The notes beneath the pieces are model-generated. The model was not told the origin of the DNA. It was given only the letters and a program-made list of their open reading frames with translations, and ran no database searches. Both the position numbers and the translations under genes were made by a program. 64,000 nucleotides of DNA from NCBI RefSeq assembly GCF_030013205.1, contig NZ_CP122648.1, one strand, 5' to 3'. The stretch comes from Escherichia coli (GTDB taxonomy: Bacteria > Pseudomonadota > Gammaproteobacteria > Enterobacterales > Enterobacteriaceae). Below, piece after piece: positions 1,078-2,562 of the stretch (the stretch's first letter is position 1; each line of letters opens with the position of its first letter).

Positions 1078-2366
1078 TATACGTATTCCTTAAGCTGCGT
1101 ATCTGACAATGCTCTGTTCCAGAAACGGAGGTTTTTTATATGACCATTAAGGTGTCGTAATCCTGTCGTCGTTTGCCCCCCGATTCGAATCACGGCTGCT
1201 TCACGAATATATTTCCATACTGTTTTGGTTTCAGTGCTTATATGCTTATTTGCAAATGAGCATGTCATGCCGTCAGCCTTAACCCTGAATCCCATAACGA
1301 GATCTCTTACTCCGCATGACTCATATACACGCCGGTTAGCCCCGCCTATATCGCAATACGAATAACCATCCTGACTGATAGTTCCAGAAGAACCAAACCC
1401 CATAATAAATGGGCCTCCGGACTGGTGATTTTCTGAATCAATGACACGCGGTGCAGCATTATGAGAAATAAACCAGTTTTTATGGACTTCCACCATGAAC
1501 GTAAAAGGCATGGTATACATATTTTTCATCAGCGGAAACTTACATAAATCTGATGCACGAGTCGCTGGCTCTGTTGTCGTTATGATAAAGGAAGTTGCAC
1601 AAGCACCATACTCGAATTGCGGGGTGGTTACTTCTATCCAGTCACCTGTTGCAAAAGCCCCCACTGCTCTGTCGGCTGCAATTTGCAGCTGCGTACCAAC
1701 CATTCCCCATTCTGGCAGACATTTCAGTGTTGCCTGAAAATATATCCATCCACTACCAGGGTCGATTTCAAAGTTTGCTGTTAATAGCTGGGCATTACCA
1801 CCCGTAATTTGTAGTTCATGAGTCTGTAATGACAAATAGGCGTCACAAAGGAAAGTGTATCCTTCCGAGTTATACCGTTCAAAACGGATACGTGCGCGAA
1901 CATTGAGATCACTTCTTACCCTGAACGACGCGGTAACATACGGACCTTTACTGTACTGATCATCGCCAGTCACATCTATGCCTTTATTACCAGCAACTGT
2001 GCATATATTTCTCCCTGTTGTCGTTCCTGCTATCTCACTTCCTACTGTGAAACGTCCATATTTAAACTCAAATTCATCTGTTGATGATGTTACAGATATA
2101 CCACCGCTTTTATTCCACGCATCAGGATTAAAACTATTTACGAACATGTTTGTTCGCTGATTCTCTATCAGCAAACCATATTTTTCAAAACGAGGAACGT
2201 TATTCCCTGCCACGGTAATATGCCCGGACTTATCAATATACGTTGCAGATGAAGCCCGGCTAAATTGGCATATGCCATTAACAGGCATTGTTATTTCATC
2301 ACTGCCGATGGTTATTGTTTTATAGCCCGGGGCATACCCTGTTATCGCTTCCAGAGAATCATTCAA
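1077..2366 (-). CDS. Tail-fibre distal (receptor-binding) region; the reading frame stays open upstream to about 2440 and has no ATG start
   Basis: 429-aa ORF in the track; C-terminal ...LNGHIKNLRFWNRALSDTQL is lectin/LamG-like; the upstream in-frame continuation (NAARIAEDAADPASVPPLPDIWLPLNDSLEAIT) joins the Stf N-domain frame by a +1 shift. Confidence 0.5.
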   Translation of the reverse strand: MNDSLEAITGYAPGYKTITIGSDEITMPVNGICQFSRASSATYIDKSGHITVAGNNVPRFEKYGLLIENQRTNMFVNSFNPDAWNKSGGISVTSSTDEFEFKYGRFTVGSEIAGTTTGRNICTVAGNKGIDVTGDDQYSKGPYVTASFRVRSDLNVRARIRFERYNSEGYTFLCDAYLSLQTHELQITGGNAQLLTANFEIDPGSGWIYFQATLKCLPEWGMVGTQLQIAADRAVGAFATGDWIEVTTPQFEYGACATSFIITTTEPATRASDLCKFPLMKNMYTMPFTFMVEVHKNWFISHNAAPRVIDSENHQSGGPFIMGFGSSGTISQDGYSYCDIGGANRRVYESCGVRDLVMGFRVKADGMTCSFANKHISTETKTVWKYIREAAVIRIGGQTTTGLRHLNGHIKNLRFWNRALSDTQLKEYV

Positions 2367-2406
2367 GGGTAGCCAGATATCAGGAAGCGGAGGGACAGAA
2401 GCAGGA

Positions 2407-2562
2407 TCAGCGGCATCTTCTGCAATCCGGGCTGCATTCAGAGGCCACCGTGTTCACCAGTACCGTGGTGCTGTTACGCTTTGCCTTCAGTTGAATAGTG
2501 CAGTTCTGTATTGGTTTTCCCGCACCATCTTTCAGCACACCTGAGATTTTTACTGCTGCCAT
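2407..2562 (-). pseudogene. stf: Side tail fibre (Stf) conserved N-terminal domain fragment, 51 codons, terminated by a frameshift
   Basis: Reverse-complement translation MAAVKISGVLKDGAGKPIQNCTIQLKAKRNSTTVLVNTVASE... matches the lambda Stf N-terminus as recalled, then runs into a stop at 2409-2407. Confidence 0.6.

What the first reader, a model, noticed from the sequence alone, without database searches (positions are those of the whole stretch)
2366..2562. Conserved Stf N-terminal domain separated by a +1 frameshift from an unrelated distal tail-fibre domain
The first 42 codons match the lambda side-tail-fibre N-terminus that anchors the fibre to the tail; the frame then terminates, and a +1 frame continues without a start codon into a 429-aa distal domain with a lectin-like C-terminus. 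This is either a pseudogene, a module swap caught at its junction, or an assembly error.
Basis: seen in the sequence. Interest (0 to 1): 0.35.

Follow-up and report, generated by a model that had tools for sequence, protein, structure and literature searches.

The report
Side tail fibre gene broken by deletion
This is an ordinary dead gene: a phage side-tail-fibre gene in a decaying E. coli prophage lost 872 bases from its middle, which knocks the rest of the gene out of frame.

Summary
From ATG 2562, 42 codons match the lambda Stf N-terminal collar domain. Nine unrelated codons and a TGA (2409-2407) follow. The +1 frame then runs to 1077 and encodes a lectin-like distal domain.

The cause is an 872-bp internal deletion, not a small frameshift, a module swap or an assembly error. 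About 130 other E. coli genomes, and plaque-forming phages such as PhiR55_1, carry one 785-codon ORF. The window equals that ORF minus codons 43-332 plus two bases. The breakpoints share a 3-bp GAA, and 872 mod 3 = 2.

Both flanks come from the same gene: 0/126 and 6/1360 mismatches to one intact allele, and 0/1360 to a sister prophage that keeps the deleted segment. The junction occurs in 5 of 5,426 complete genomes, all pig isolates from two countries.

The prophage has also lost every head and tail gene from the terminase gene to mid-J. A sister copy carries a different lom-stf deletion.

The "429-aa gene" in RefSeq is an ORF-calling by-product with a TTG start and no Shine-Dalgarno sequence.

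Verdict: a deletion pseudogene in a cryptic prophage. It is a known kind of feature and of low interest.

The parts
2579..2600 (-). Terminator-like GC-rich hairpin plus T-run after lom, directly upstream of the stf ribosome-binding site (GGAG) and ATG
   Evidence: 8-pair stem, 7 GC pairs, T-run; sequence.
2437..2562 (-). stf 5' fragment: codons 1-42 of the ancestral 785-codon side-tail-fibre gene. This is the first ~45% of the 94-residue collar (tail-anchoring) domain.
   Evidence: PF08400, E=1.7e-18; 0/126 mismatches to L002; PDB 9e7m Stf residues 2-94.
2437..2439 (-). Deletion junction: GAA, the 3-bp microhomology shared by both breakpoints
   Evidence: the right-flank match of other genomes starts at query base 39, which is window 2439; 872 bp deleted, L002 3265-4136.
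2407..2436 (-). Out-of-frame read-through of the N-terminal frame: 9 novel codons (CSPDCRRCR) and TGA stop at 2409-2407
1077..2438 (-). stf 3' fragment: codons 333-785 plus stop of the ancestral gene, now in the +1 frame relative to the ATG. It has no start codon of its own at its 5' end.
   Evidence: 0/1360 mismatches to sister prophage L006, 6/1360 to L002.
1077..2366 (-). 429-aa ORF from TTG, annotated in RefSeq as 'phage head spike fiber domain-containing protein' (WP_136770465.1). It is an ORF-calling by-product: no Shine-Dalgarno sequence lies upstream (ccgcttcctgatatctggctacccTTG).
   Evidence: NF048003 GTA_spike_fiber, E=2e-13, residues 66-271; upstream sequence.
1602..2279 (-). Distal domain 1 (about residues 30-255 of the 429-aa ORF): beta-sandwich related to the RcGTA head-spike-fibre domain
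   Evidence: model secondary structure, pLDDT >90 over most of it.
1080..1574 (-). Distal domain 2 (about residues 265-429): ConA-like / Laminin-G-like lectin fold
808..1077 (-). Downstream 89-aa ORF of the fibre cluster (phrog_1361, function unknown). Its start overlaps the stf stop.
1..795 (-). 5' part of a 346-aa second tail-fibre gene, cut by the window edge. It carries a C-terminal Peptidase_S74 intramolecular chaperone and is the probable distal fibre that docks on Stf.
   Evidence: PF13884, E=2.4e-12; phrog_4563, 1-346/346.
2627..3226 (-). lom (Ail/Lom outer-membrane protein), intact. It gives the lambda-type gene order J-lom-stf.
3297..5081 (-). 3' remnant of tail-tip gene J (N-terminus missing), fused to a 36-codon 5' stub next to DUF1441 that is probably the terminase large subunit gene. 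It marks a second, larger deletion in the same prophage.
   Evidence: One search shows J intact in the sister prophage and a partial terminase large subunit gene at the position of the stub.

Best explanation
The locus is a deletion pseudogene of a lambda-type side-tail-fibre (stf) gene inside a cryptic prophage.

The ancestral gene was one 785-codon ORF with three parts:
- an N-terminal collar domain that clamps the fibre onto the tail;
- about 200 residues of Ala/Ser/Thr-rich KTSETNAK-type shaft repeats;
- a distal two-domain beta-sandwich module ending in a ConA/LamG-like lectin fold.

A single 872-bp deletion between two sites sharing only GAA removed codons 43-332 plus two bases. This was probably illegitimate recombination or replication slippage. 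Translation from the intact RBS and ATG now yields at most a 51-aa peptide. The 453 C-terminal codons are stranded in the +1 frame without a start signal.

The lesion is one of several in a prophage that has also lost all head and tail genes, so it is neutral decay. It is recent and lineage-specific to a pig-associated E. coli clone.

Shown: the deletion, its exact ends, its frame consequence, its distribution, the intact ancestor and the domain folds. Inferred: the deletion mechanism, the lack of expression of the distal ORF, and glycan binding by the distal module.
For: Anatomy
- Searches give the three reading frames.
- Searches show that the window equals L002 minus L002 3265-4136 (872 bp), with GAA microhomology, running from codon 43 position 1 to codon 333 position 2.

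Intact ancestor
- the undeleted allele is one continuous 786-codon frame in two genomes.
- it matches phrog_1419 over 1-793/793 (1271 bits).
- phages PhiR55_1, PhiR11_1 and PhiR47_1 carry it at 98-99% aa identity as 'side tail fiber protein'.

Distribution
- the junction 80-mer is complete in only 5 of 5,426 genomes, and 132 others hold both flanks.
- the junction is identical in K_EC180 (Korea) and ETEC1748 (Belgium).
- the window is 100% identical to ETEC1748 over 6.5 kb.

Sister prophage
- the copy in W13-16 is 0/1360 different in the retained 3' part and is continuous across the right breakpoint.
- that sister copy has an independent lom-to-stf deletion.

Functional consequence
- the Stf collar domain spans residues 1-94, and its beta4-beta5 loops contact gpV and gpM. 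Only 42 residues remain here.
- J is truncated and every gene between the stub next to DUF1441 and J is missing.
Against: - No read-level data were available, so the junction rests on assemblies.
- The five carriers may be one clone, which would make them less independent.
- The distal ORF and its three downstream genes are still intact, with 0-6 substitutions. This is expected for a recent deletion but does not by itself exclude some retained use.
- A 3-bp microhomology is close to what chance gives, so the mechanism of deletion is not established.
Confidence: 0.93

Rival explanations
1. Assembly or sequencing artefact: the repeat-rich shaft region was collapsed by the assembler and the real genome has an intact stf.
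For: The deleted segment contains the KTSETNAK-type repeats, which are harder to assemble. No reads could be inspected.
Against: - The breakpoints lie in unique sequence: codon 42 of the collar domain, and after the last repeat. They share only 3 bp. A repeat collapse would join repeat units.
- The same junction appears in five complete genomes from two projects and countries.
- 132 other genomes and the sister prophage assembled the region in full.
Confidence: 0.02
2. Module swap: recombination between two different tail-fibre genes joined a lambda-type anchor to a foreign distal domain, and the junction happened to fall out of frame.
For: - The distal module is mobile. It is fused to other N-terminal anchors (PF03406, PF12571) and to T5-like lateral fibres.
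- Fibre modules are known to be exchanged, including with defective prophages.
Against: - Both flanks match one and the same intact gene at 100% and 99.6%. The missing piece is exactly its internal 872 bp.
- The family's module boundary (PLPDIWLPLNDSL) lies 13 codons downstream of the breakpoint, not at it.
Confidence: 0.02
3. Functional split or recoded gene. Either a programmed +1 frameshift fuses the two frames, or the 429-aa ORF is translated on its own from TTG 2366 as a free lectin-like protein.
For: - RefSeq annotates the 429-aa ORF as an intact CDS.
- The ORF has no internal stops, and its fold is predicted with confidence.
Against: - Homologues are single ORFs with no frame overlap.
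- There is no prfB-like CUU-UGA-C site or upstream Shine-Dalgarno sequence in 2447-2407, and none before TTG 2366.
- A fused product would still lack half the collar and the whole trimerising shaft.
- The prophage has no tail to attach to.
- PGAP makes the same split call on intact genes, so the annotation is an artefact.
- PADLOC gives no hit.
Confidence: 0.03

Closest known systems
Lambda PaPa stf frameshift (orf-401/orf-314), against Ur-lambda with intact Stf
   Same: - The same gene family, with a homologous N-terminal collar domain.
- The same position after J-lom.
- The reading frame is broken, so no side fibres can be made.
   Different: - Lambda PaPa carries a frameshift mutation in a viable laboratory phage. 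By recall it is a single-base change; the papers read say only 'frameshift'.
- Here 872 bp (290 codons plus 2 nt) are gone, including half of the collar and the whole shaft.
- The host element is a prophage remnant without head or tail genes.
Intact side tail fibre of Escherichia phages PhiR55_1, PhiR11_1 and PhiR47_1 (phrog_1419) and about 130 E. coli prophages
   Same: 98-99% amino-acid identity over every retained residue, with the same downstream 89-aa and 346-aa genes.
   Different: Those are continuous 785-codon ORFs. The window copy lacks codons 43-332 and is out of frame.
Lateral tail fibre protein of T5-like phage IrisVonRoten (Bas32) and the RcGTA head-spike fibre domain (NF048003)
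   Same: - The distal module is about 55% identical to the C-terminal ~440 aa of a 796-aa lateral tail fibre protein of IrisVonRoten.
- A proximal lateral fibre protein of that phage is described as carrying a galectin-like C-terminal domain and as holding a second, distal receptor-binding fibre. That the 796-aa protein is this proximal fibre is inferred.
- The NF048003 domain match has E=2e-13.
- The RcGTA head-spike and tail fibres are the subject of a paper on an extracellular polysaccharide receptor (PMC10218006, title and opening of the abstract only).
   Different: - The N-terminal anchor differs: a lambda collar against a T5-type attachment.
- Those proteins are functional; this copy is not.
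- Glycan binding by this module was not tested.
stf/tfa remnants of E. coli K-12 cryptic prophages (Rac, Qin)
   Same: These are side-fibre genes surviving in defective lambdoid prophages, and they can still recombine with incoming phage.
   Different: The distal modules and the lesions differ. K-12 was not compared directly here.

Membership tests
Lambda-type side tail fibre (Stf; PF08400 N-terminal collar) | Complete N-terminal collar domain (about residues 1-94: six-strand beta sheet plus helix) that binds the gpV/gpM junction | tested here: not met
   Only residues 1-42 remain in frame. The domain extent comes from PDB 9e7m and PMC12617516. The Pfam hit covers profile positions 2-45 of 134.
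Lambda-type side tail fibre (Stf; PF08400 N-terminal collar) | Gene located downstream of J and lom in a lambdoid late operon | tested here: met
   The order J'-lom-stf' is seen.
Lambda-type side tail fibre (Stf; PF08400 N-terminal collar) | One continuous ORF linking collar, coiled-coil shaft and receptor-binding tip | tested here: not met
   Stop at 2409-2407; the distal part is in the +1 frame; the shaft repeats are deleted. The feature is met in the intact alleles.
phrog_1419 tail protein family (Stf with GTA-spike-like and LamG-like distal module) | End-to-end match to the about 790-aa family profile | tested here: not met
   The intact allele matches 1-793/793. The window copy retains only codons 1-42 and 333-785, in different frames. 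It is a derivative of a member, not a functional member.
Programmed +1 ribosomal frameshift genes (prfB type) | Slippery or stop-adjacent shift site with an upstream SD-like stimulator, and a two-frame arrangement conserved in homologues | tested here: not met
   Homologues are single ORFs. By inspection, no CUU-UGA-C or SD-like element lies in 2447-2407.
Concanavalin A-like lectin / Laminin-G superfamily (C-terminal domain) | Sequence match to PF13385 at or above the gathering score | tested here: inconclusive
   This copy scores 21 bits against a cut-off of 27.6. 18 of 32 relatives match at E<=1e-3, best 6e-11.
Concanavalin A-like lectin / Laminin-G superfamily (C-terminal domain) | Jelly-roll beta-sandwich fold | tested here: met
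Concanavalin A-like lectin / Laminin-G superfamily (C-terminal domain) | Carbohydrate binding | not testable with these tools
   Inferred only from the fold and from the literature on related fibres.

The most novel reading that the evidence does not exclude
The stranded but still undamaged distal module, together with its intact partner fibre genes, is not inert. It could serve as a recombination donor that incoming lambdoid phages use to acquire a new glycan-binding fibre tip. Alternatively, it could be translated at a low level from TTG 2366 as a free lectin-like protein that masks a surface glycan.
Probability: 0.06. Interest if true: 0.3.

Novelty: already known. Interest (0 to 1): 0.08.

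Why it matters
The finding matters little on its own. It is a clean, fully resolved example of prophage decay by deletion, and RefSeq already flags it as a pseudogene.

It has three practical uses:
- It warns that the 429-aa 'phage head spike fiber domain-containing protein' CDS (WP_136770465.1) is an annotation by-product. The same pipeline also splits intact 785-codon stf genes into a false pseudogene plus a CDS.
- The junction is a specific marker for one pig-associated E. coli lineage, found in 5 of 5,426 complete genomes.
- Two independent deletions at the same locus in sister prophages illustrate how quickly tail-fibre genes erode once the rest of the virion genes are gone.

Tried and rejected
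- Programmed +1 frameshift: rejected because homologues are single ORFs and no shift site is present.
- Assembly collapse of the repeats: rejected because the breakpoints lie in unique sequence and the junction recurs in two independent projects.
- Chimeric module swap: rejected because both flanks match one intact gene.
- Defence-system role for the 429-aa ORF: no PADLOC hit.
- Pfam Beta_helix hit (E=0.025): disregarded as noise, because the model is made of beta-sandwich domains with no extended beta-helix.
- A literature search for the PhiR phage series found no paper describing them.
- Promoter scan: no convincing internal promoter for the distal ORF. There were 2 weak sites against 5.6 expected by chance.

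Full report
**What is in the sequence**

The feature lies on the minus strand. A terminator-like hairpin follows lom (2600-2579). After it come a GGAG ribosome-binding site and an ATG at 2562.

That frame reads MAAVKISGVLKDGAGKPIQNCTIQLKAKRNSTTVLVNTVASE for 42 codons. It then continues CSPDCRRCR and ends at TGA 2409-2407. The 51-residue product matches Pfam PF08400 (Prophage tail fibre N-terminal) at E=1.7e-18.

The +1 frame is open from 2447 to a stop at 1079-1077. The mechanical ORF list gives 429 aa from TTG 2366.

**What caused it**

A megablast of window 1000-2700 against 5,426 complete E. coli genomes found five full-length collinear matches. It also found about 130 genomes in which the same query aligns in two pieces spanning 2,573 bp instead of 1,701 bp.

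Aligning the window to one of these (FDAARGOS_497, locus L002) shows that the window lacks exactly 872 bp, L002 3265-4136. The breakpoints share only GAA, at window 2439-2437. The deletion runs from codon 43 position 1 to codon 333 position 2. Since 872 mod 3 = 2, everything downstream is read in +1.

In L002, and in strain G749 (L005), the undeleted gene is one uninterrupted 786-codon frame. It has three parts:
- the collar domain;
- about 200 residues of Ala/Ser/Thr-rich KTSETNAK-type repeats;
- the distal domain.

The window's flanks differ from L002 at 0 of 126 and 6 of 1,360 positions. Both sides therefore come from the same gene, which rules out a chimeric module swap.

**Is it real?**

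An 80-mer centred on the junction is found complete in only 5 of 5,426 genomes. All five are pig isolates: K_EC180 from Korea, ETEC1748 from Belgium, and ETEC4067, ETEC4069 and ETEC4079. The window is 100% identical to ETEC1748 over the 6,477 bases compared and 99.98% identical to K_EC180.

The breakpoints lie in unique sequence rather than within the repeats. A repeat collapse by an assembler is therefore not a credible cause.

**The ancestor was a working gene**

The intact protein matches PHROG 1419 ('tail protein') over its whole length, 1-793/793 at 1,271 bits. It is encoded at 98-99% identity, as 'side tail fiber protein', by isolated phages PhiR55_1, PhiR11_1 and PhiR47_1. The records list E. 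coli C, K-12 or ECOR13 as their hosts.

Its first 95 residues match the solved lambda Stf collar domain (PDB 9e7m/9mgh) at E=7e-49. In Ur-lambda, residues 1-94 form a six-strand sheet plus a helix (PMC12617516). Twelve copies form a collar at the gpV/gpM junction, contacted through the beta4-beta5 loops. A coiled-coil shaft follows.

The window keeps only 42 of those residues and none of the shaft. Even a hypothetical frame-corrected product could neither anchor nor trimerise normally.

**The distal module**

NCBIfam NF048003 ('GTA_spike_fiber') matches residues 66-271 of the 429-aa ORF at E=2e-13. Laminin_G_3 matches the last about 50 residues below threshold (21 bits against 27.6). In an alignment of 32 diverse relatives, 18 match it, the best at 6e-11.

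The module is about 55% identical to the C-terminal ~440 residues of a 796-aa lateral tail fibre protein of the T5-like phage IrisVonRoten. PMC11990801 describes a proximal lateral fibre protein of that phage as carrying a C-terminal galectin-like domain and holding a second, distal receptor-binding fibre. That the 796-aa protein is this proximal fibre is my inference.

The locus here is consistent with that arrangement. It continues with an 89-aa ORF and a 346-aa tail fibre carrying a Peptidase_S74 intramolecular chaperone. The same distal module is fused to other anchors (PF03406, PF12571) elsewhere. It is therefore a mobile module, but the window's breakpoint lies 13 codons upstream of the conserved module boundary PLPDIWLPLNDSL. 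'Lectin-like' is supported as a fold; sugar binding is inferred.

**Context: a decaying prophage**

The element sits between prfC and yjjG, with its integrase at about window 20,050-21,270 (by offset from K_EC180 coordinates). It retains regulatory and lysis genes. Next to DUF1441 only a 36-codon stub remains, and it is fused directly to the 3' part of J, at window 3297-5081. The stub is probably the start of the terminase large subunit gene, which occupies that position in the sister prophage. No head or tail-shaft genes remain between them.

The sister prophage at the same site in wild-boar strain W13-16 (L006) keeps the whole of J. Its stf 3' part is 0/1,360 different from the window and is continuous across the window's right breakpoint. 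It has a different deletion that fuses lom nucleotide ~212 to about stf codon 147 at a CAGCTA microhomology.

The two lineages therefore inactivated the same gene independently. The window's deletion is recent and lineage-specific.

**Annotation caveat**

RefSeq annotates the window-type locus as a pseudogene ('prophage tail fiber N-terminal domain-containing protein, missing C-terminus') plus an intact 429-aa CDS, WP_136770465.1. The TTG has no Shine-Dalgarno sequence upstream. The same pipeline also splits the demonstrably continuous ORFs of L002 and G749 in the same way. The 429-aa 'gene' is thus a by-product of domain-driven annotation, not evidence of a separate gene.

**Rivals**

- Programmed +1 frameshifting is rejected. 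Homologues are single ORFs, and the 40-nt overlap has no shift site.
- An assembly error is very unlikely, for the reasons given under 'Is it real?'.
- A module swap is excluded by the identity of both flanks to one gene.
- Independent expression of the distal ORF cannot be excluded without expression data. Nothing supports it: PADLOC gives no hit, and the promoter scan is below chance.

**Comparison and verdict**

The nearest precedent is the lambda PaPa stf frameshift, which abolishes side fibres. Stf/tfa remnants of K-12 cryptic prophages are another precedent, and those can still recombine with incoming phage.

This case differs only in the lesion, an 872-bp out-of-frame deletion, and in the type of distal module. 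It is a known kind of feature and is already flagged as a pseudogene. It is of low interest, apart from its use as a lineage marker and as an annotation warning.

Noticed in passing
L002:3139-5496 and L005:2006-4363: RefSeq/PGAP splits the continuous 786-codon stf ORF into a 'pseudogene, missing C-terminus' (first 122 codons) plus a separate 'phage head spike fiber domain-containing protein' CDS of 659 or 429 aa. Part of the ORF is sometimes left unannotated. Translation shows no stop, so this is an annotation artefact affecting many genomes.
   Followed up: yes
L006:8245-8460 (E. coli O139:H1 W13-16, wild boar): The sister prophage at the same prfC/yjjG site has an independent deletion of roughly 0.9 kb. 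It fuses lom (nt ~212) to about stf codon 147 at a 6-bp CAGCTA microhomology. J is intact there. This is a second, separate inactivation of the same fibre gene.
   Followed up: partly
window 3297-5184: A second deletion junction in the same prophage. A 36-codon stub next to DUF1441 (about 5077-5184), probably the start of the terminase large subunit gene, is fused to the 3' about 595 codons of J (3297-5081). All head and tail-shaft genes are gone. In W13-16 the corresponding deletion has different ends (partial terminase large subunit gene to a partial NlpC/P60 gene).
   Followed up: partly
L004:47-1946 (just outside the window's left edge, about 0.7-2.6 kb before window position 1): A two-gene anti-phage defence system, a SLATT-domain protein plus a UG17-class reverse transcriptase. 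PADLOC gives RTasSLATT E=8e-57 and RT_UG17 E=6e-159. It sits at the prophage end, just beyond the fibre genes.
   Followed up: partly
window 1-795 (-) and 808-1077 (-): Downstream of stf lie an 89-aa ORF (phrog_1361) and a 346-aa tail fibre with a Peptidase_S74 intramolecular chaperone (phrog_4563), both intact. This suggests a two-component, possibly branched, side fibre like that described for IrisVonRoten. These partner genes are orphaned by the stf deletion.
   Followed up: partly
window 6093-6686 (+): An Ais-like 'lipopolysaccharide core heptose(II)-phosphate phosphatase' gene sits on the opposite strand between the prophage lysis cassette and DUF1441. It is a likely moron that could modify the host LPS core.
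   Followed up: no
window 8254-8328 (-): A tRNA-Gly (anticodon TCC) lies inside the prophage, upstream of the holin genes in the late-gene direction. The chromosomal tRNA-Leu(CAG) triplet is at 24625-24947.
   Followed up: no
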